The translations under genes were made by a program, and so were the position numbers. This document shows, in pieces, positions 1-9,277 of a DNA stretch of 9,277 nucleotides. The stretch lies in the IMG/VR virus record IMGVR_UViG_2526164632_000010. The stretch is one strand, 5' to 3'. This DNA is from a virus. Lineage: Duplodnaviria; Heunggongvirae; Uroviricota; Caudoviricetes. The first letter of the stretch is position 1, and every line of letters begins with the position of its first letter. The notes beneath the pieces were generated by a model. It was not told where the DNA came from. It searched no databases and was given only the letters and a program-made list of their open reading frames with translations.

Positions 1-306
1 AACGGGGGCAAAGAGGGGGTGCAAATTTTGCCGTTCCAGCAGATCACCGCAAAAGATGAGTTCATGAATGTTAAGGCGGCATCCCGTGATGATGTGCTGG
101 CTGCGCACCGTGTTCCGCCGCAACTGATGGGGGCGATGCCGGGCGAAAAAAGTGCGTTTGGTGATGTGGAGAAGGCCGCGCGGGTTTACGCAATTAACGA
201 GCTGATGCCCGTTATGGAGGCCATGAAGCACATCAATGACTGGCTTGGCGAAGAGGTGATCCGTTTTAACTCTTATGCTCTTCTTGATGAAAAAACAGCC
301 CCGTGA
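1..306 (+). CDS. Phage portal protein, C-terminal part (gene starts upstream of the window)
   Basis: Reading frame is open from base 1 to TGA at 304-306 (the listed ORF 19-306 is its GTG-initiated tail). Residues resemble the C-terminal region of P2/PBSX-type portal proteins by recall only. Convergent with the replication gene, as Q and A are in P2-like genomes. Followed immediately by a hairpin terminator. Confidence 0.5.
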   Translation, partial: NGGKEGVQILPFQQITAKDEFMNVKAASRDDVLAAHRVPPQLMGAMPGEKSAFGDVEKAARVYAINELMPVMEAMKHINDWLGEEVIRFNSYALLDEKTAP

Positions 307-322
307 TGGGGCTGTCCTTTTT
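295..322. terminator. Bidirectional intrinsic terminator between convergent genes
   Basis: Stem CAGCCCC (296-302) / GGGGCTG (308-314) with loop GTGAT containing the stop codon; flanked by an A-run upstream and a T-run downstream, so it is U-rich after the hairpin on both strands. Confidence 0.6.
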
Positions 323-845
323 ACCAGAGCTGAACCATTTTCTGGGTTCCGTCAGGCTTGAGATTATCAATTTCAGAGAAAACGTAATATTGAATGGCTT
401 CACAAACGGTGGTGTAGGGTGAATTACCTTCTTTAAGTGGCACGATATTATTATTAACGCGAACCTGTATTTCATCGTTATACATTGCGATCGAAAGAGG
501 AGTATGCACGAAGGCGACTTCGCCAGGTGTGTCGTCAACCACTGTCTCAATGCTGAAAATCAGTTTTCGCTCATCATTGCCGCCCCTTGCTTTGGGGGTA
601 GCGGCAGGGATCTGAGATAAAGGCATTCTGCGAAATCCTTCGGCTGCTTCCAGTCCGCATGAAACGTAATGCTGGCGATTACCGTCGCTATCTGTCCAGG
701 TCTGTGATGGCAGCTCCAGCGAGATTTCATAAGCATCAACAATGCCCTGGGCAAGGCGTACAAGCGGGGTCAGATCTTCATTGCGGCGAAAGCTCTCCTT
801 TACCTGCTCCCGTTTTTCTCTTAACTGCTTGTAATTAATGACCAT
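321..845 (-). CDS. Hypothetical protein, 174 aa (orphan cargo gene)
   Basis: ATG at 845..843 preceded by GGAGG with a 7-nt spacer. The listed 187-aa ORF starts at an upstream GTG without an RBS, so the shorter start is preferred. No family recognised; region looks AT-richer than the replication gene by eye. Its stop abuts the bidirectional terminator. Confidence 0.6.
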   Translation of the reverse strand: MVINYKQLREKREQVKESFRRNEDLTPLVRLAQGIVDAYEISLELPSQTWTDSDGNRQHYVSCGLEAAEGFRRMPLSQIPAATPKARGGNDERKLIFSIETVVDDTPGEVAFVHTPLSIAMYNDEIQVRVNNNIVPLKEGNSPYTTVCEAIQYYVFSEIDNLKPDGTQKMVQLW

Positions 846-875
846 AAGACAGCCTCCATTGATTTCTTTGCTCGT

Positions 876-904
876 ATTTTGCACTTACGAAGTATGGTCG
901 GCAA
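876..904 (-). promoter_or_regulatory. Predicted sigma70 promoter for the 174-aa gene
   Basis: On the minus strand: -35 TTGCCG (complement of 899-904), 17-nt spacer, -10 CAAAAT (complement of 876-881), about 25 nt upstream of the ATG. Sequence-only prediction. Confidence 0.3.
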
Positions 905-944
905 GGTGCCGTATCGCTGACGCGCTTCGCTTGTCTGCTGCTTC

Positions 945-969
945 GCCGGGGCATAAAAAATTTATGCCC
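945..969. repeat. Perfect inverted repeat, 11-bp arms with 3-nt centre (CGGGGCATAAA-AAA-TTTATGCCCCG)
   Basis: Read directly from the sequence. No U-tract follows on either strand, so it is not a classic terminator; candidate operator or RNA/DNA hairpin upstream of the 174-aa gene promoter. Confidence 0.7.
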
Positions 970-1257
970 CGACTCTCCAGCTCCTGTATCAATCAGATAA
1001 TTTCACGACGCCTTCCAGTTTATCGCCACCATCGACGGTCAGACTCTTACGCAATCCCACCACGTTGACTGTATGTTCTCGCTGCCTCAGTGCGATTTTG
1101 ACGGCCTTACCTTTCACCCCATCAAATCAAAAGCCCTCACGCCTTTTTCATGCTCAGCGTGAGAAATATGGCCATTCTGTTGTGTCTCTGCGACATCGTT
1201 CAGGGAATGCTATTTACCCCCTGAAACGCGGGCTGTTCCCCCGTCACCTGCGCGTAG

Positions 1258-1404: not shown

Positions 1405-1674
1405 TCAATTGTTGCTGTGTATTAATCGCCAACCACGAACATATGCTTCATAAGCATCTCTGTGCCTTACAGTTCCAGCCTGGCTAAACGGAATGTTAGC
1501 TAAAACTAAATCATTCTGAGCCATAGCGCGTCCTTCAAGCGCATCTTTTATGCCTAGCTCAAAAGCACAGGCAGCGCATTTGTGCCGACCTTCTTGTCCT
1601 TGATATTCAGGGAGAGACAGAAATGTTGGGTTATAACGATGAGGGTTCTTGCAAATACCTGTTTTAGCCCGCAC
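1405..1674 (-). CDS. Hypothetical small protein, 89 aa (candidate effector of the antisense-regulated module)
   Basis: GTG start at 1674 with GAGGT about 9 nt upstream. An alternative internal start at ATG 1524 with AAGGA and a 6-nt spacer would give 39 aa. Terminator lies directly after the stop. No family recognised and no transmembrane segment. Confidence 0.4.
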   Translation of the reverse strand: MRAKTGICKNPHRYNPTFLSLPEYQGQEGRHKCAACAFELGIKDALEGRAMAQNDLVLANIPFSQAGTVRHRDAYEAYVRGWRLIHSNN

Positions 1675-2038: not shown

Positions 2039-2350
2039 TTACCCAGGAAATAACGCCCGGATATTCCCAGCCATCTGGCTGGTTATCTTAGCCACTGGTG
2101 CAGACTGTGCTTCAAACTTTTTTGAGCTGATTTGTGTCACAGGTAACATCTCATCATCAGCCCATGCGGCCAGTCGGTAAGCCTCTGCCGGATTCGTCTT
2201 CAGAAGTGCCAGCCCGGCCAGAAAAGCCACGCGTTGGCCGCTTTTGCGGGCTTCTGGTGTAAGGCTGTCCAGCCAGGCGCATGCTTCTCCTTCGTTCTTG
2301 ACGGCAGCTGGCTTCAGATAGAAACTTATTCTTCTGGTTGGTGTCGTCAT
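2039..2350 (-). CDS. parR: ParR/StbB-like centromere-binding partition adaptor, 103 aa
   Basis: Immediately downstream of parM with a 4-nt gap. N-terminal RRISFYLKP...LDSLTPEARKSGQRVAFLAGLALLKTNP resembles plasmid R1 ParR (RRTIAFKLNP...LDSIPQGERSRLNRAALTAGLALYRQDP) as recalled. Confidence 0.8.
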   Translation of the reverse strand: MTTPTRRISFYLKPAAVKNEGEACAWLDSLTPEARKSGQRVAFLAGLALLKTNPAEAYRLAAWADDEMLPVTQISSKKFEAQSAPVAKITSQMAGNIRALFPG

Positions 2351-2354
2351 TGGT

Positions 2355-3314
2355 TTACTCCTTGTTCATTGCGTACAGCCCATTAACCAGAGCAAACTGT
2401 GGCACCCCGTCCGCGATGAAAGTCGCATTAACTCCGCAGGCTTCGCGGATAGCGGGTGCCACAATCTCCGCCCCTCCACCGACAACCATCACCCGCCCGT
2501 AACCGGAAAAACCCGCCAGCGCGCGGATCACTCGTTGTTTCAGTGTCTCCTCCTTTTCACGAATAACCGCCATCAGGCTGTTGTAATGCGCGTCATTGTG
2601 AATGTGCTGGCGCAGCCAGGCTTCATCGTGACGGTGCTCAATAATGGTATTGGCGATGTGGTGACTGGTACGCATACCGTTAGTGGCCATCACCGACAGC
2701 ACGGCATCAGCCATCAGGGAAACGCCTACGTTTGGATCGCAAAACACCTGGCTGATACCTGCCAGCTGCCCCTGAACCTTTGCCACATCCAGCGTGGTTC
2801 CGCCCAAATCCACAATCAGCAGGGATTCAAACGGACTCATGTCAGCCAGTGCCTTAAAGCCAGCCGGAATGGATTCAGGCATAACCCGTACGTTACGGAT
2901 AGTGAATGCTTCGCCGTTCTGGTACTCCACCGGGCGCATGACGTTCGCTTTTTTGCGGTTGATGTTGGCCATGTCCGGCTGTGCGTTTGTGTCGAAATAC
3001 TCGCTCAGTGGCAGGGTGACAACCACATCCACCTCCTGTGGCGTGATGCCTGATTTGACCAGCGCGTGATGAATGGCGATTACATTCACATCGCTGTACT
3101 GGTATTGCGTGTCAGTCGTCTGGACAAAACGATCGCTGACCGGATCAAAGCCATAGCGCACGCCATCAAGCATGTAGTTCGCGGGATGCGTGCCACCGAA
3201 CGGCGCAGACCATTCCGACTTGAAGCTGTTCGGGCTGATGGCGTTGCGGCGTTCGCCGTTCTCAGTCCATGCCAGCTTGATGTTGGTGGAGCCGTCGTCG
3301 ATACAAATTTTCAT
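2355..3314 (-). CDS. parM: ParM/StbA-like actin-type plasmid segregation ATPase, 319 aa
   Basis: ATG at 3314 with AAGGA 8 nt upstream. Motifs shared with R1 ParM as recalled: N-terminal IDDGSTNIKL, YSDVNVIAIHHAL, NRKKAN, VMPESIPAG, LIVDLGGTTLD, GVSL, GGGAE, LVNG. Confidence 0.93.
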   Translation of the reverse strand: MKICIDDGSTNIKLAWTENGERRNAISPNSFKSEWSAPFGGTHPANYMLDGVRYGFDPVSDRFVQTTDTQYQYSDVNVIAIHHALVKSGITPQEVDVVVTLPLSEYFDTNAQPDMANINRKKANVMRPVEYQNGEAFTIRNVRVMPESIPAGFKALADMSPFESLLIVDLGGTTLDVAKVQGQLAGISQVFCDPNVGVSLMADAVLSVMATNGMRTSHHIANTIIEHRHDEAWLRQHIHNDAHYNSLMAVIREKEETLKQRVIRALAGFSGYGRVMVVGGGAEIVAPAIREACGVNATFIADGVPQFALVNGLYAMNKE

Positions 3315-3344: not shown

Positions 3345-3457
3345 GTTTACGGGATTTTTAAATCCCGCTTTCGCCTGTTTTGTGCGCGCTTCATATATCG
3401 CGGCGCGTTTTTTGCTCATTTACGGGATTTGTGGATCCCGTTTCTGTCTGTTTTTTG
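3345..3457. repeat. Two imperfect 40-bp direct repeats, each with a CGGGAT...ATCCCG inverted repeat, upstream of parM
   Basis: Copy A at 3345-3384 and copy B at 3418-3457, about 30 of 40 positions identical, 73 bp apart. Copy A is intergenic; copy B overlaps the last codons of the replication gene. Position relative to parM matches a parC-like centromere/operator. Confidence 0.45.
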
Positions 3458-6198
3458 TTTCCACTGGTCAGGCCACCCTGCAGCAGGTCTGCTTTGCGGC
3501 TGGCGCGTTCAGTGGTTTCACTGATTCTCTGTGCGTGCTCTGCGTCGCGGATGGCGCGCAGCATGTCAGAAAGCACGGTAACGGGTGTTTTCATGGTGTT
3601 CTGATCCTGCTGAAGTGCGGATGCCAGGCGTGCGGCGGCTTCGGGGTCTGATGCCCCCAGCTGTGCCAGATAGCTGGCGACCGGGTTATGGCGGATCTCC
3701 GTGCTGCTTACGCCGTGATTACGGCTCAGGTGCTGCCAGAGCTGCGTGATTCGGCTGTCCGGGCGGGTATCCGGTTTGCGTACAATTTCATATCCCTGCG
3801 GTGCAATGATGCTGCCGTCAACGTACAGGCTGCCGCCCCGTAGCAGGTGCTGCATCTGCTGTTCACCGATATGCAGGCCGAGAGATTCGGCAGACTCCCG
3901 CCATTCTTTAGCGAGTAATTCGTGGTTATCAGGCAAAGGCCGCTGCTGTTTGCGGCTCTGTGTCCAGCTCTGCATTTCATCACTGCTGTTTTTTGCCTGT
4001 TTGTCACGAAGCGAACGCATCAGCGCCCGGCGTTCGTGCCGTTTCAGTGAGCGCATCCATTCGTTCACTTCAACGCCGTCAGGAAGCTGCGGCCACGGTG
4101 CTGGCCGTTCTTTCGACTGTTCTGTCCCGCTGTTGCCTGTTTCCTGTACACGGGGACAGTTATTGCCACGAGTCCAAGGGGCGGCAGGGCCGCCCTGAAG
4201 GTCAAAACCATTTTCGCGGGCGCTGTCTTCCGCTTCCGGTTTGCGTCTTACCAGCTTCCAGTTATCCGGATGCGTGCACACACGGGAGGATTCCCCGATG
4301 AGTGGTGACCAGATCCCGTAAATCTGTACGCTCTGTTCGCCGTAATCGTTCAGCTCATCGGCGAGGTCGTAGGCGGTGCGAATCAGGTAGTCTTTGCGTG
4401 GAACAAGTACGCCGCCCTGTTTCTCTATGTAGGTGGCAAAACATCCTGCATCAGCGGCAGCGAGTACCGCATCCATTGCGTCATCCTTCAGCCGTTGCGG
4501 GCCTTCCGGGTTGCGTGCCATCTGGCTGGCAAGGCGGCGGAGTTCACGCCACACCTGACGGGAGGGGATGCCAAAGAACTGGAACTGGCGGACCCGGTGA
4601 AGGCGCGCCCAGCCGATGGCGCGTTCCACGCTCTCGGCCATTGATTTTCCGGTTTCGTGGTCAACGCGTGGCTTGCCCGTTTTCTGGTCGATGCCATCCA
4701 CGGCGCGGCTGTCCAGGTTCTTTCCGATGTAGGTGGCGATGTAGCTGGTTGGTGTGCCTTTTGAGCCGTCTACGTACTCCGCCTTAAAACGCGGAGTTAT
4801 GTCATCGCCCAGCTCGTGGCGGTCTTCCTGAATGGCAATATCGCAGACGTGGGACACGATGGTTTCAATCTCGTCCGGATGTGCAAAGACCATCATATGC
4901 CAGTGCACGGTGCCGTCATGGTGAGGCTCCACCGTGCGGATGCCATACCAGCGCAGGCCGTCGCGGTTCAGTTTCTTGCGGACCGCCGCAAAAAACGTGT
5001 TAACCAGGTAATCGCTGGAGTCGCGCATGGTGGCCCCGTTCCATTTGGGATTCGGATGACCGTTCTCTGTTGTGGCGTGGTATTTTGACGGGCAGGTGAC
5101 AGTCAGAAACACCGCTTTGTCGCCACGGGCTTCGGCCAGAAGTTCCAGCCCCTTCATGGTGGCCATCATTTCTGCCTTACGGTGAACCGGGTTACTTACT
5201 CCCGCGTAATACACTGTCTCGAGATCAATCGTGAACCCGTCTTCGTTTTCCAGCATGAAACTTTTCAGGAAATCGCGTGTTTTCTCGCGCTGTGCGCGAA
5301 ACTCGCTTAACGCGTCCTGGCTCAGATAGGGTGATGTTTTTCTGGAAACCAGACAGGCGGCGCGGAGTTGTTCTTCTCTCCACTCGCAACGTAACAGCCA
5401 CAATTTGCGTTTCCACCATTCCGCACAGGTCAGGCGAAGGATTGCGCCCGGTAACAGTTCCGTATCCGGATCGCTCTTGTTCAGGGCTTCGTAATGTGGC
5501 GGCATGATGTGCAGGCGTAATGCGATACGGGCCAGCATCCGGTAAGCCTTCAACATTACATCCATGGTCAGCTCGCCATCTCTGGCACCAAAGCCATCGC
5601 AGAGTGTTTCGAAGGTGCTGCTGAACATCGCCGCCGTCATGGTGGCCAGCGTCTGTATCTGGTGCTTGTTGAGCTGCGGCAGGTAAAGCAAATCGTCCAG
5701 GCGTTCGCGCCCGGCAAGGGAGCGATAACCCGGTGTCAGCCAGCGCCCGTCAGTGCGATCCAGACGTTCGAATATTTTGCGCAGGGTCCCGCGCGCGTAG
5801 CGTTCAGCCTGCTGGTTCTTTTTACCTTTCTGGCGGTCAGATTCCTGTTTTTTGCGCAGGAAGGAGAGGTGGCGAATAAGCGGATCGCGCAGATAGGATG
5901 GCAGCAGGCGCAGCGAGGCCATGGCTTCATCCACCGCGCCGCGTACCTGCTTTCTGGCGTCTCCTGCCAGTGTGATGGTTTTGTCCTGTTTTTCCTGTGC
6001 GTCCAGGCTTTTATTAATCAGGTTGCCCAGCGGCGTGGCGGAGAACGCCGCATCAGCCATTTCCTGGCAGCGCTCGTTCTCTGCCCGGTAGGCATCCAGC
6101 CAGGAGGAAAGCGCGGATTCAGGAGCGGGGATCCCCGTTCCTTCACGCCCCACTGCGTGGCGCGGTTGCTGCCAGTCCCTGATGTACTCTGCCGTCAT
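3391..6198 (-). CDS. Rolling-circle replication initiator, P2 gpA family (HUH endonuclease), 935 aa
   Basis: HUH motif HWHMMVF near residue 431-437 and active-site-like tyrosine pair Y486/Y490 in SYIATYIGKNLD, the same Y-x3-Y spacing recalled for P2 A and phiX174 A. Long ORF; start is 6 nt after the stop of the preceding gene. Confidence 0.9.
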   Translation of the reverse strand: MTAEYIRDWQQPRHAVGREGTGIPAPESALSSWLDAYRAENERCQEMADAAFSATPLGNLINKSLDAQEKQDKTITLAGDARKQVRGAVDEAMASLRLLPSYLRDPLIRHLSFLRKKQESDRQKGKKNQQAERYARGTLRKIFERLDRTDGRWLTPGYRSLAGRERLDDLLYLPQLNKHQIQTLATMTAAMFSSTFETLCDGFGARDGELTMDVMLKAYRMLARIALRLHIMPPHYEALNKSDPDTELLPGAILRLTCAEWWKRKLWLLRCEWREEQLRAACLVSRKTSPYLSQDALSEFRAQREKTRDFLKSFMLENEDGFTIDLETVYYAGVSNPVHRKAEMMATMKGLELLAEARGDKAVFLTVTCPSKYHATTENGHPNPKWNGATMRDSSDYLVNTFFAAVRKKLNRDGLRWYGIRTVEPHHDGTVHWHMMVFAHPDEIETIVSHVCDIAIQEDRHELGDDITPRFKAEYVDGSKGTPTSYIATYIGKNLDSRAVDGIDQKTGKPRVDHETGKSMAESVERAIGWARLHRVRQFQFFGIPSRQVWRELRRLASQMARNPEGPQRLKDDAMDAVLAAADAGCFATYIEKQGGVLVPRKDYLIRTAYDLADELNDYGEQSVQIYGIWSPLIGESSRVCTHPDNWKLVRRKPEAEDSARENGFDLQGGPAAPWTRGNNCPRVQETGNSGTEQSKERPAPWPQLPDGVEVNEWMRSLKRHERRALMRSLRDKQAKNSSDEMQSWTQSRKQQRPLPDNHELLAKEWRESAESLGLHIGEQQMQHLLRGGSLYVDGSIIAPQGYEIVRKPDTRPDSRITQLWQHLSRNHGVSSTEIRHNPVASYLAQLGASDPEAAARLASALQQDQNTMKTPVTVLSDMLRAIRDAEHAQRISETTERASRKADLLQGGLTSGNKKQTETGSTNPVNEQKTRRDI

Positions 6199-6642: not shown

Positions 6643-6873
6643 TTAATGGAGTTTGTTTTGCTGCTGGATGAGCTGCTGAAGCTCGCGCAGATCATCCGCC
6701 AGATAACTGAAAACAGCGGATGAATAGAGGTTTGAAAGTTCGCAGCTACGCTCATGCAGCATATTGATGTGCATGATTTGCGCGACGCGTGATGCGCGGG
6801 AAAGTCTGCGGTTGATTTCAGTCTGGATGTGACGACGCTCCGCGATAGTGCGGTGCTGTTTGCGGTTTGCCAT
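6643..6873 (-). CDS. Hypothetical small basic protein, 76 aa (possible regulator)
   Basis: ATG at 6873 with AGAGG and a 7-nt spacer. Basic N-terminus and helical-looking sequence. An overlapping 205-aa ORF in another frame is low-complexity and was rejected. Confidence 0.55.
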   Translation of the reverse strand: MANRKQHRTIAERRHIQTEINRRLSRASRVAQIMHINMLHERSCELSNLYSSAVFSYLADDLRELQQLIQQQNKLH

Positions 6874-7050
6874 GGTGTGGCCTCTACGTGTGTAAGTTTT
6901 GAAAACTCACCATCCAGAGCTGCGAAACTGTGGGTGGCGAGACGTACGAGGTTCGCAGTACCGGCAAACGCAGAACCCGGCCCGACCGAAGTCGGCCCCG
7001 TACGCCCCACCATAATTCTGATGCGAAAAAGACGTGGCGATACAGTACGC

Positions 7051-7073
7051 ACAAAAAAACCGCTGGCGCGGTT
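7051..7073 (-). terminator. Candidate intrinsic terminator or attenuator inside the early operon (minus strand)
   Basis: Minus-strand RNA would read AACCGC-GCCA-GCGGUU followed by UUUUUGU. Located about 120 nt downstream of the 99-aa gene and upstream of the 76-aa gene. Confidence 0.45.
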
Positions 7074-7195
7074 GTGCGCTACGTTTGTCAGCGGGCTGCG
7101 AAACCCGGCACCCGTTTTATGAGGTGCAGCGGAAATGTAACCTGACTGATTGCGGCATGGCAAGCGGTTTTTTTGTGTGTGCATGTTCTGGTTTC

Positions 7196-8460: not shown

Positions 8461-8664
8461 TAGCGTGCCTTTTCAGCTTCGCTAATGATTTCTCGTACGG
8501 TCTGGTACGGAAGTTCCACAAGCAGTCGCGTGCCGTTCAGATAAACGTAAGTGGCTTCGTCGGCTCCGTTTTTACCCGCCGGAGTCACTCCGTCAATAGC
8601 GGATGCACGTAATAACAGTTCACCGCGAAAATCAATAAAACGGATAAATACACCTTGTGCATGG
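8461..8664 (-). pseudogene. C-terminal fragment (about 67 codons) of a gene truncated by the IS2 insertion
   Basis: Open frame runs from the IS2 boundary (8664) to TAG at 8463..8461 and encodes ...GELLLRASAIDGVTPAGKNGADEATYVYLNGTRLLVELPYQTVREIISEAEKAR, which looks protein-like. There is no start codon inside the window on this side of IS2. Confidence 0.4.
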
Positions 8665-9277
8665 TGGATTTGCCCCTATATTTCCAGACATCTGTTATCA
8701 CTTAACCCATTACAAGCCCGCTGCCGCAGATATTCCCGTGGCGAGCGATAACCCAGCGCACTATGCGGATGCCATTCGTTATAATGCTCGAACGCCTCTG
8801 CAAGGTTCTTTGCTGCCGTTAACCCGTCTGGTTTGGGCATGATACTGATGTAGTCACGCTTTATCGTTTTCACGAAGCTCTCTGCTATTCCGTTACTCTC
8901 CGGACTCCGCACCGCCGTGTTCTTCGGTTCAAGTCCCAACATCCGGGCGAACTGGCGTGTTTCATTAGCCCGGTAGCATGAACCATTATCCGTCAGCCAC
9001 TCCACTGGAGACGACGGAAGATCGTTGCCGAAGCGGCGTTCCACCGCTCCCAGCATGACGTCCTGTACTGTTTCACTGTTGAAGCCGCCGGTAGTCACCG
9101 CCCAGTGCAGTGCCTCACGATCACAGCAGTCCAGCGCGAACGTGACACGCAGTCTCTCTCCGTTATCACAGCAGAACTCGAACCCGTCAGAGCACCATCG
9201 CTGATTGCTTTCTTTCACGGCCACTCTGCCTGTATGTGCCCGTTTCGATGGCGGTACAGCAGGTTTTCGCTCAAGCA
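8665..9277 (-). mobile_element. IS2 (IS3 family), right-end 613 bp; the element continues beyond the window
   Basis: Terminal sequence TGGATTTGCCCCTATATTTCCAGACATCTGTTATCACTTAACCC starting at 8665 matches the IS2 right inverted repeat as recalled. Contains the 3' part of insD. Confidence 0.9.
8676..9277 (-). CDS. insD: IS2 transposase OrfB (InsD), C-terminal part; 5' end outside the window
   Basis: C-terminal sequence ...[41 protein letters not shown] matches IS2 InsD by recall. Frame stays open from 9224 to the window edge. Confidence 0.9.

What the first reader, a model, noticed from the sequence alone, without database searches (positions are those of the whole stretch)
321..845. Orphan 174-aa gene with its own promoter and terminator, next to the portal gene
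It is a stand-alone transcription unit (predicted promoter, GGAGG RBS, bidirectional terminator) in the cargo interval, AT-richer than the neighbouring replication gene by eye, and matches no family I recognise. Single-gene units in this kind of locus are often defence, anti-defence or superinfection-exclusion genes.
Basis: inference. Interest (0 to 1): 0.5.

Follow-up and report, generated by a model that had tools for sequence, protein, structure and literature searches.

The report
Unknown-function cargo gene beside phage portal
This is a real, self-contained accessory gene carried by a P2-family prophage in its known "defence hotspot"; it belongs to a small, uncharacterised family of temperate-phage proteins (PHROG 5091), its fold matches nothing known, and its function has never been tested.

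Summary
The 174-aa ORF (845..321, minus strand) is a real gene. It has ATG with GGAGG 7 nt upstream, dN/dS of 0.06-0.24, 47% GC against 58% in gpA, and a bidirectional terminator shared with the convergent portal gene. It is not an orphan. It belongs to PHROG 5091 (unknown function), occurs in 397 of 5,426 complete E. coli genomes, and is listed as "hypothetical" in Rousset et al. 2022's table of P2 hotspot loci.

It lies in a 635-bp indel cassette (282-916) that is absent from the otherwise ~97% identical, viable phage P88, so it is dispensable cargo. The consensus scan calls no promoter, but a weak TTGCCG-17-CAAAAT is conserved across diverged orthologues.

Distant homologues (21-31% identity, Enterobacterales only) occupy classic moron slots: between antiterminator Q and holin in five lambdoid lineages, in other P2-like hotspots, and inside a baseplate cluster. 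Each of seven loci checked has its own terminator or terminal hairpin. Some P2-like prophages carry a second, 28%-identical paralogue in the same cos-portal interval.

Best guess: a stoichiometric binding protein acting in phage-phage conflict. That function is inferred, not shown.

The parts
321..845 (-). orf174 coding sequence (174 aa, stop TAA 323-321); RefSeq WP_000236493.1 'hypothetical protein'; member of PHROG 5091
   Evidence: dN/dS 0.06-0.24; AF2 model pLDDT 90.7
853..857 (-). Shine-Dalgarno GGAGG, 7 nt upstream of the ATG
   Evidence: read from the sequence; GGAG is invariant in all five aligned orthologue upstream regions
876..904 (-). Candidate sigma-70 promoter: TTGCCG (904-899), 17-nt spacer, CAAAAT (881-876). 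Weak, 8 of 12 matches
   Evidence: not called by the scan; hexamers and spacing are conserved in L027, L023 and Salmonella L025 while the spacer and flanks diverge. Function as a promoter is inferred.
289..322 (.). Bidirectional intrinsic terminator shared by the portal gene (+) and orf174 (-): stem-loop 295-315 flanked by an A-run and a T-run
   Evidence: -20.6 and -18.0 kcal/mol; z -5.0 and -3.8
282..916 (.). 635-bp presence/absence cassette. It holds the last 8 portal codons, the terminator, orf174, the SD and the candidate promoter. It replaces 21 bp of phages P88 and 520873
   Evidence: no flanking direct repeats
1..306 (+). 3' end of the portal gene (gpQ homologue), convergent with orf174
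945..973 (.). 13-bp-stem hairpin GGGGCATAAA..TTTATGCCCC with no T tail. It is the portal-proximal hairpin in phages that lack orf174, and it lies directly downstream of paralogue A in L021 and L027
   Evidence: -28.9 kcal/mol, z -6.8
1230..1253 (-). Putative cos core. GGTGACGGGGGAACAGCCC matches the P2 cohesive end GGCGAGGCGGGGAAAGCAC at 13 of 19 positions. This would place orf174 between cos and the portal gene
   Evidence: the motif GCGCAGGYGMCGRGGGAA occurs once in the window (0 in 200 shuffles) and at the matching place in 12 P2-like loci; P2 cos sequence taken from PMC3931495. Assignment as cos is inferred.

Best explanation
orf174 is an autonomous accessory ('moron') cassette of a P88-like (Xuanwuvirus, P2-family) prophage. 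It sits between the putative cos site and the portal gene, inside the gpA-gpQ hotspot.

Shown:
- It is a real gene under purifying selection.
- It is dispensable for the phage.
- It carries its own terminator.
- It belongs to a family (PHROG 5091) found essentially only in Enterobacterales temperate phages and prophages. One chromosomal copy has no phage genes nearby.
- Family members sit in cargo slots, and all seven homologue loci examined for this have a terminator or terminal hairpin after the stop codon.

Inferred:
- It is transcribed from its own weak, conserved sigma-70 promoter in the lysogen.
- The product is a soluble, mildly acidic ~20 kDa alpha/beta protein (an N-terminal helical hairpin, an antiparallel sheet, and a C-terminal helix). 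It probably works without catalysis by binding a partner protein.
- The most likely role is in phage-phage conflict: protecting the lysogen by sequestering or poisoning a component of a superinfecting phage, in the manner of P2 Tin, rather than by a membrane block or a nuclease.

My confidence by layer: about 0.85 that it is moron or hotspot cargo, about 0.55 that it is a non-enzymatic binder, and about 0.35 that it acts in defence. The overall confidence given (0.35) is for the full statement including the defence role.
For: Real gene: dN/dS 0.06-0.24; intact in 395 of the 397 E. coli genomes that carry it.

Cargo:
- The 635-bp cassette is absent from P88 and 520873, whose flanks are ~97% identical. 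P88 is an inducible lytic phage (PMC5285337).
- GC is 47% against 53-58% in the neighbours.
- The position lies inside the published P2 defence hotspot.
- The 97.7%-identical variant WP_000236495.1 appears at least 167 times as 'hypothetical' in Rousset's Table S5.

Autonomy:
- Bidirectional terminator.
- Conserved -35 and -10 hexamers.
- A strong terminator, 1397-1377, closes the upstream early operon.
- Five homologue loci have a scan-called intrinsic terminator 20-75 nt after the stop. L027 has a GC hairpin plus T-run read from the sequence. L021 has the tail-less hairpin.

Moron slots:
- Between Q and the holin gene in five lambdoid lineages.
- After the lysis cassette.
- In P2-like hotspots beside HicB, Phd/Fic or TumE cargo.
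- Inside a baseplate gene cluster.

Diversification: a tandem pair of 28%-identical paralogues in L027.

Non-enzymatic binder:
- No transmembrane segment; family median pI about 5.2 (5.0 for this protein).
- Conserved positions are mostly aromatic or aliphatic, with no conserved His/Cys/Glu/Arg set.

Lysogeny-linked: only 5 of 50,697 phage records carry the family. Four are P88-like and the fifth, CharmingMan, has a lambdoid layout. Only 2 of 72,556 plasmid records carry it.
Against: - There is no functional evidence at all. The protein has no PADLOC match; the family scan gave only two marginal single-member hits. No Pfam or NCBIfam match for the protein either.
- The published base rate is modest. 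About a third of cloned hotspot systems gave defence, and only 15-32% of unknown P2 proteins are predicted to be antiviral.
- A lone soluble protein with no effector domain is an unusual defence architecture.
- The promoter is sub-threshold and expression is unproven.
- In lambdoid phages the homologues lie in the late transcript, where they would also be expressed during lytic growth.
- One homologue sits in an ordinary chromosomal neighbourhood with no defence genes nearby.
Confidence: 0.35

Rival explanations
1. Counter-defence protein. A small acidic binder that neutralises a host immune sensor or effector for the benefit of the phage that carries it, for example one that senses late proteins such as portal or terminase.
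For: - It is small, soluble and acidic with no catalytic motif.
- The family is fast-diverging and includes tandem paralogues.
- In lambdoid phages it lies in the Q-dependent late transcript.
Against: - The family is nearly absent from isolated phages: 5 of 50,697 records.
- It is nearly absent from plasmids, which often carry anti-defence genes: 2 of 72,556 records.
- In P2-like phages it is not in an early or leading operon. It stands alone behind a terminator.
- Anti-defence genes are rare in P2-like prophages, found in 28 of 1,511 (PMC13586616).
Confidence: 0.15
2. Non-essential helper of the phage's own lytic cycle. It might tune lysis timing, DNA packaging at cos or the portal, or prophage induction, rather than act in conflict with other elements.
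For: - Its positions recur next to late functions. It lies directly upstream of the holin gene in four lambdoid lineages.
- One copy lies between the lysis cassette and the terminase gene.
- Copies lie between the putative cos site and the portal gene in several P2-like lineages.
- One copy lies inside a baseplate cluster.
Against: - It is present or absent among phages that are otherwise ~97% identical, and P88, which lacks both paralogues, is viable.
- The gene carries its own terminator, and in P2-like phages it is oriented against the late portal operon.
- The same slots are the known cargo sites; stx genes occupy the Q-holin gap (my own knowledge).
- One copy is chromosomal with no phage genes nearby.
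Confidence: 0.2
3. Lysogenic-conversion factor unrelated to phages. For example an orphan immunity or antitoxin-like protein against a bacterial toxin, or a modulator of host physiology.
For: - Tandem divergent paralogues are reminiscent of immunity arrays.
- Neighbours are often toxin-antitoxin genes.
- One copy stands alone in a chromosome.
Against: - No cognate toxin gene sits next to it in any of the contexts examined.
- The family is tied to temperate phages, not to T6SS, CDI or Rhs loci.
Confidence: 0.15
4. Spurious or decaying ORF with no function.
For: No annotation in any curated family library. The window contains many chance ORFs of similar length.
Against: - dN/dS is 0.06-0.24.
- The gene is intact in 395 of 397 genomes.
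- About 60 distant full-length homologues exist.
- The AF2 model is confident, pLDDT 90.7.
- The SD and the terminator are conserved.
Confidence: 0.02

Closest known systems
PHROG 5091 (phage protein family of unknown function)
   Same: Full-length HMM match at E 1.4e-66, residues 1-168 against profile positions 1-164 of 164. All 61 distant relatives in alignment A4 also match it.
   Different: Nothing differs; this is membership. The family has no name, function, Pfam model or solved structure.
P2 hotspot cargo genes tin and old (gpA-gpQ interval; Rousset 2022, Vassallo 2022)
   Same: The same hypervariable interval of P2-family prophages. Single-gene units that are dispensable for the phage. 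tin and old are expressed from the prophage and exclude other phages (PMC9122126; PMC9519451).
   Different: The protein matches no model in PADLOC-DB v2. I did not check whether that library includes tin or old models, and I did not compare the sequences directly. orf174 lies on the portal side of the putative cos site, not the gpA side. It is smaller and has no recognisable enzymatic domain. No exclusion phenotype is known for it.
Classical morons of lambdoid phages (promoter-gene-terminator units such as lambda bor/lom, HK97 gp15, stx in the Q-holin gap). Concept of Juhala/Hendrix, cited from my own knowledge; 'moron' as used in PMC9122126
   Same: An extra gene absent from close relatives, with deviant GC content and its own terminator. 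Homologues occupy the Q-holin gap in five lineages.
   Different: The promoter is only weakly supported here. The product is cytoplasmic, whereas many classical morons encode envelope proteins or toxins.
Alpha/beta protein-binding scaffolds: FP domain of PI31/Fbxo7, actin-capping protein subunits, Med17 C-terminal domain, T3SS chaperones
ctx cytotoxin gene of Pseudomonas P2-like phage phiCTX (from my own knowledge, not checked here)
   Same: A cargo gene placed between cos and the portal gene of a P2-family phage.
   Different: An unrelated, secreted toxin. orf174 has no signal peptide or membrane segment.

Membership tests
PHROG 5091 | Significant full-length match to the family HMM | tested here: met
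   E 1.4e-66, 224 bits, residues 1-168 against profile 1-164 of 164; 61 of 61 relatives also match
Moron (autonomous accessory cassette) | Gene absent from closely related phage genomes | tested here: met
   Window 282-916 replaces 21 bp in P88 and 520873; the flanks are ~97% identical
Moron (autonomous accessory cassette) | Own transcription terminator | tested here: met
   Stem-loop 295-315 with a U-run on the minus strand. Five homologue loci have a scan-called terminator, L027 has a hairpin plus T-run read from the sequence, and L021 has a tail-less hairpin.
Moron (autonomous accessory cassette) | Own promoter | tested here: inconclusive
   No site reaches the scan threshold. TTGCCG-17-CAAAAT matches 8 of 12, and the hexamers and spacing are conserved in diverged orthologues.
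Moron (autonomous accessory cassette) | Nucleotide composition different from the neighbours | tested here: met
   47.0% GC against 53.3% (portal end) and 57.8% (gpA)
Moron (autonomous accessory cassette) | Expressed from the repressed prophage | not testable with these tools
   Needs RNA-seq or 5'-RACE of a lysogen
P2 defence hotspot #1 cargo (Rousset 2022 / Vassallo 2022) | Located between replication gene gpA and portal gene gpQ in a variable interval | tested here: met
   gpA is at 3391-6198 and the portal end at 1-306. The close variant WP_000236495.1 is listed in Table S5 of PMC9122126.
Known anti-phage defence systems (PADLOC-DB v2.0.0) | HMM match to a component of a described or candidate system | tested here: not met
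   0 hits for the protein. Two marginal single-member hits among 61 relatives, E 0.005 and 0.009.
Known anti-phage defence systems | Reduces plating of a phage when expressed | not testable with these tools
   Experiment needed. The accession is not among the systems tested in PMC9122126: it appears only in the hotspot inventory file.
Membrane-type superinfection exclusion proteins (Sie/Imm/Cor-like) | Signal peptide, lipobox or transmembrane segment | tested here: not met
   The maximum 19-residue Kyte-Doolittle mean is 0.99 (family median 1.0). The N-terminus is charged: MVINYKQLREKRE.
Structural or housekeeping phage proteins | Homology to a virion, replication, lysis or packaging family, or required in all related phages | tested here: not met
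   No Pfam, NCBIfam or PHROG functional hit. No BFVD or PDB fold match. Absent from the viable phage P88.
Known anti-defence families (Acr, Ocr/Ard, Tad, Gad and others) | Sequence or fold match to a described inhibitor | tested here: inconclusive

The most novel reading that the evidence does not exclude
PHROG 5091 could be a new single-protein immunity or counter-immunity family with a fold not yet seen in solved structures. It would act purely by binding, not through an enzyme or a membrane effector. It would have two deeply diverged paralogue lineages (A and B) resident in a previously unremarked cargo slot between cos and the portal gene of P2-family prophages, and it would move as a gene-plus-terminator unit among P2-like, lambdoid and E217-like temperate phages.
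Probability: 0.3. Interest if true: 0.6.

Novelty: new member of a known kind. Interest (0 to 1): 0.38.

Why it matters
The gene sits in about 7% of complete E. coli genomes, in the most productive known reservoir of phage-defence genes. Yet it has no Pfam model, no defence-database entry, no structural relative and no published test.

If it proves to be a defence or counter-defence protein, it would add a non-enzymatic, soluble, single-protein mechanism to the catalogue. The tandem paralogues would offer a natural system for studying specificity.

If it does nothing in phage challenge, it is a useful reminder that hotspot residence alone does not indicate defence.

Either way, this analysis turns an "orphan" into a defined family with mapped cassette boundaries and ready-made natural controls. 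P88 carries neither paralogue, PhiR44_2 and 569R5 carry B, ED1a-type prophages carry A, and L027 carries both.

Tried and rejected
- **P2 cos search.** The pattern GGCGNGGCGGGGAAAGCA with up to 3 mismatches found only a chance hit inside gpA. A degenerate motif conserved across P2-like loci was then used instead.
- **Designed helical repeat proteins.** The narrow A1 profile hit these in the PDB at E 2e-10. The score is a sum of three or four weak 15-bit matches to each repeat and disappears with the deeper A4 profile. Rejected as an artefact.
- **The 42-aa ORF 989-1117 as a decayed paralogue A.** It is the best non-self profile hit in the window, but at E 0.28 and 4.9 bits. tblastn with both paralogue A proteins finds nothing below E 1. 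Not supported.
- **Transposition-type insertion.** No direct repeats flank 282-916.
- **The search for related loci.** It could not run with A4 because no conserved peptide stretch was found. With A1 it found only two species-representative genomes.
- **Literature.** Searches for WP_000236493, WP_000236495 and phrog_5091 found no paper. Supplementary files of PMC13586616 are not held.
- **Plasmids.** Only two records carry the gene, so there is no link to plasmid leading regions.

Full report
**What is there**

The window is part of a P88-like prophage (genus Xuanwuvirus, Peduoviridae, P2 family). Its features are:
- the 3' end of the portal gene, 1-306 (+);
- the ORF in question, 845..321 (-);
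- a doubtful 42-aa ORF, 989-1117 (-);
- orf89, 1405-1674 (-), PHROG 3941;
- ParR and ParM, 2039-3314 (-);
- replication gene gpA, 3391-6198 (-);
- early-region genes and an IS3-family transposase fragment at the right end.

The ORF starts at ATG 845, with GGAGG at 857-853, 7 nt upstream. Every homologue starts at the same MVINY/MTITY position, so the 174-aa reading is right and the 187-aa GTG reading is wrong. The stop codon lies 14 nt from the portal stop.

Between the two stops is a stem-loop, 295-315. It folds well on both strands (-20.6 and -18.0 kcal/mol; z -5.0 and -3.8) and is followed by a U-run on each strand. It is therefore a true bidirectional terminator.

GC content is 47.0%, against 57.8% in gpA and 53.3% in the portal end. 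Pairwise dN/dS among eight orthologues is 0.06-0.24, so this is a real protein-coding gene.

**The cassette**

Compared with phages P88 and 520873, window 282-916 (635 bp) replaces 21 bp. The flanks are ~97% identical. The cassette carries a different set of the last eight portal codons, the bidirectional terminator, orf174, its SD and about 70 bp upstream. No direct repeats flank it.

P88 was induced from E. coli K88 and is a working phage (PMC5285337), so orf174 is dispensable for the phage.

The gene is present in 397 of 5,426 complete E. coli genomes, always chromosomal, and intact in 395 of them. The flanking sequence without the cassette occurs in many more; 1,142 genomes match some part of the 250-1000 query.

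**Promoter**

The consensus scan calls nothing upstream of the gene. By eye there is TTGCCG (904-899), a 17-nt spacer, then CAAAAT (881-876), which is 8 of 12 matches.

In an alignment of upstream regions, both hexamers and the 17-nt spacing are retained in L027 (84% protein identity) and in Salmonella L025 (63%). In L025 the rest of the upstream region is barely alignable. I take this as moderate phylogenetic support for a weak promoter. It is an inference.

Two further features point to a separate transcription unit. A strong terminator (1397-1377, minus strand) closes the upstream early operon after orf89. A tail-less 13-bp-stem hairpin at 945-973 lies just upstream of the candidate promoter.

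**Position relative to cos**

The published P2 cohesive end is GGCGAGGCGGGGAAAGCAC (PMC3931495). The window has GGTGACGGGGGAACAGCCC at 1248-1230 (-), a 13 of 19 match. It sits within the motif GCGCAGGYGMCGRGGGAA, which occurs once in the window (0 in 200 shuffles) and at the equivalent place in 12 P2-like loci.

If this is cos, orf174 lies between cos and the portal gene. That is the opposite side of cos from P2's old and tin genes. This is an inference.

**Not an orphan**

Pfam, NCBIfam and PADLOC give nothing for the protein. PHROG 5091 (unknown function) matches at E 1.4e-66.

Close relatives come from E. coli, Salmonella and Trabulsiella. A profile search of 1.84 billion representatives returned 89 proteins at E<=0.001. 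About 60 are full-length, 155-185 aa, and 21-31% identical. All 61 sequences in alignment A4 match PHROG 5091, and none matches Pfam convincingly. Named sources are E. coli, Serratia, Klebsiella, Lelliottia and Yersinia.

The 97.7%-identical variant WP_000236495.1 is listed at least 167 times as "hypothetical" in Table S5 of Rousset et al. 2022. [quoted passage not shown] It does not appear in that paper's table of tested systems.

**Genomic contexts of the family**

| Context | Loci |
|---|---|
| Convergent with the portal gene in other P2-like prophages | L021/L022 (E. coli ED1a-type, 24% identity), L025 (Salmonella), L027 |
| Directly after gpA, beside HicB and Phd/Fic | Trabulsiella L006 |
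| Between antiterminator Q and the holin gene, five lambdoid lineages | L011, L013, L020, L029, phage CharmingMan |
| After the lysis cassette, before the terminase gene | L018 |
| Inside an E217-like baseplate cluster, between the spike and sheath-initiator genes | L005 |
| Chromosome, no phage genes nearby | L008 |

Five of these loci have a scan-called intrinsic terminator 20-75 nt after the stop, including the copy inside the baseplate cluster. L027 has a GC hairpin plus T-run read from the sequence. L021 has the tail-less hairpin.

The family is almost absent from sequenced phage isolates, at 5 of 50,697 records. Four are P88-like and one is CharmingMan, which has a lambdoid layout. It is also almost absent from plasmids, at 2 of 72,556 records.

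Together these observations fit a gene-plus-terminator unit that moves between cargo slots of temperate phages.

**Two paralogues in one interval**

In L021 a 167-aa homologue (paralogue A; UniProt B7MRY5-type) ends just before the same GGGGCATAAATTTTTTATGCCCC hairpin that lies at window 945-973.

L027 carries both paralogues in tandem before the portal gene: A at 4354-4857 and an orf174-type B at 5001-5528. They are 28% identical to each other.

There are therefore two adjacent slots between cos and the portal gene:

| Phage or locus | Paralogue A | Paralogue B (orf174) |
|---|---|---|
| Window | absent | present |
| P88 | absent | absent |
| L021 | present | absent |
| L027 | present | present |

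No significant remnant of A is detectable in the window. In complete E. coli genomes the L021-type A is rare, at 11 genomes, and the L027-type A region is nearly absent.

**The protein**

- It is soluble, with no hydrophobic segment. The family median pI is about 5.2, and this protein's is 5.0.
- With the 61-sequence alignment, AlphaFold2 gives pLDDT 90.7 and pTM 0.81. The model has two N-terminal helices (5-22, 26-42), an antiparallel sheet of about eight strands, and a C-terminal helix (145-159).
- BFVD gives nothing, and afdb50 was unavailable.
- Family-wide conserved residues are mainly aromatic or aliphatic: Y39, L43, L45, W50, Y60, F97. The conserved polar residues are S42, D52, T101 and D104-D105. 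K152 is conserved in the family but is Q in this protein. There is no His/Cys/Glu/Arg catalytic constellation.

**Interpretation**

Shown:
- The gene is real, conserved and dispensable.
- It sits in a terminator-bounded cassette in the published P2 defence hotspot.
- It belongs to a mobile temperate-phage family of unknown function.

Inferred: autonomous weak promoter, expression in the lysogen, and action by binding rather than catalysis.

The role I consider most likely is phage-phage conflict in the Tin manner, where the product binds a component of an incoming phage. I put this at only about 0.35, for three reasons. Published success rates for untested hotspot genes are 15-35%. The gene matches no known defence model. 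A lone soluble binder is an unusual defence architecture.

The rivals are counter-defence (0.15), a non-essential helper of the phage's own late functions (0.2), a non-phage lysogenic-conversion or immunity role (0.15), and a spurious ORF (0.02, effectively refuted).

**Verdict**

The interpretation as hotspot cargo is supported. The defence or anti-defence function remains an untested guess.

In novelty terms this is a new, uncharacterised member of a known kind, a moron in the P2 gpA-gpQ hotspot. The gene was already inventoried as "hypothetical" in the literature. It is a reasonable but not exceptional candidate for experiment.

Noticed in passing
window 6930-7017 (-) and 7053-7127 (-): Rfam gathering-level hits to C4 antisense RNA (80 bits) and the isrK Hfq-binding sRNA (70 bits). 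They lie side by side in the prophage early region, just upstream of a 'Derepression' family ORF at 6643-6873.
   Followed up: no
window 2039-3314 (-): ParM/ParR (StbA_N + ParM_N; Plasmid_stab_B) actin-type partition system inside the hotspot. Rousset 2022 notes that about a quarter of P2-like phages carry such a system, perhaps allowing maintenance as plasmids.
   Followed up: partly
L027 4354-4857 and 5001-5528; L021 6001-6504: A second, 24-28% identical paralogue of the family (167 aa, E. coli ED1a B7MRY5-type) occupies the neighbouring slot between the putative cos site and the portal-proximal hairpin. One assembly carries both paralogues in tandem.
   Followed up: yes
L005 8001-8517: A 31%-identical homologue with its own strong terminator (8498-8517) sits inside the baseplate gene cluster of an E217/Pam3-like myophage contig, between the spike and sheath-initiator genes.
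   Followed up: partly
window 945-973: A very stable 13-bp-stem hairpin (-28.9 kcal/mol) with no T tail on either strand. It is conserved next to the portal gene in P88, L021 and L027. Whether it acts as a terminator, an RNA stabiliser or a recombination junction is unclear.
   Followed up: partly
window 8676-9224 (-): An IS3-family transposase core (rve, rve_3) at the right end of the window. It is absent at that place in the E. coli O111:H2 12A prophage, which is 100% identical over the orf174 region. A related prophage (O111:H8) has IS1203 inside gpA instead.
   Followed up: no
window 3391-6198 (-): gpA is 935 aa. The Phage_GPA domain covers only residues 179-498, and a long C-terminal extension matches PHROGs of unknown function.
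   Followed up: no
window 1405-1674 (-) and 1377-1397: orf89 (PHROG 3941, unknown function) is another small hotspot gene, followed by a strong intrinsic terminator. PhiR44_2 and P88 carry different genes at this place.
   Followed up: no
L029 3150-5532 and 8165-9702: In the Yersinia lambdoid prophage, the Q-holin gap also holds a reverse-oriented NA37 (YejK-like) gene with a 411-aa partner. Downstream of the lysis genes are a Ser/Thr kinase with a PP2C phosphatase, and Mom. All are further cargo of possible interest.
   Followed up: no
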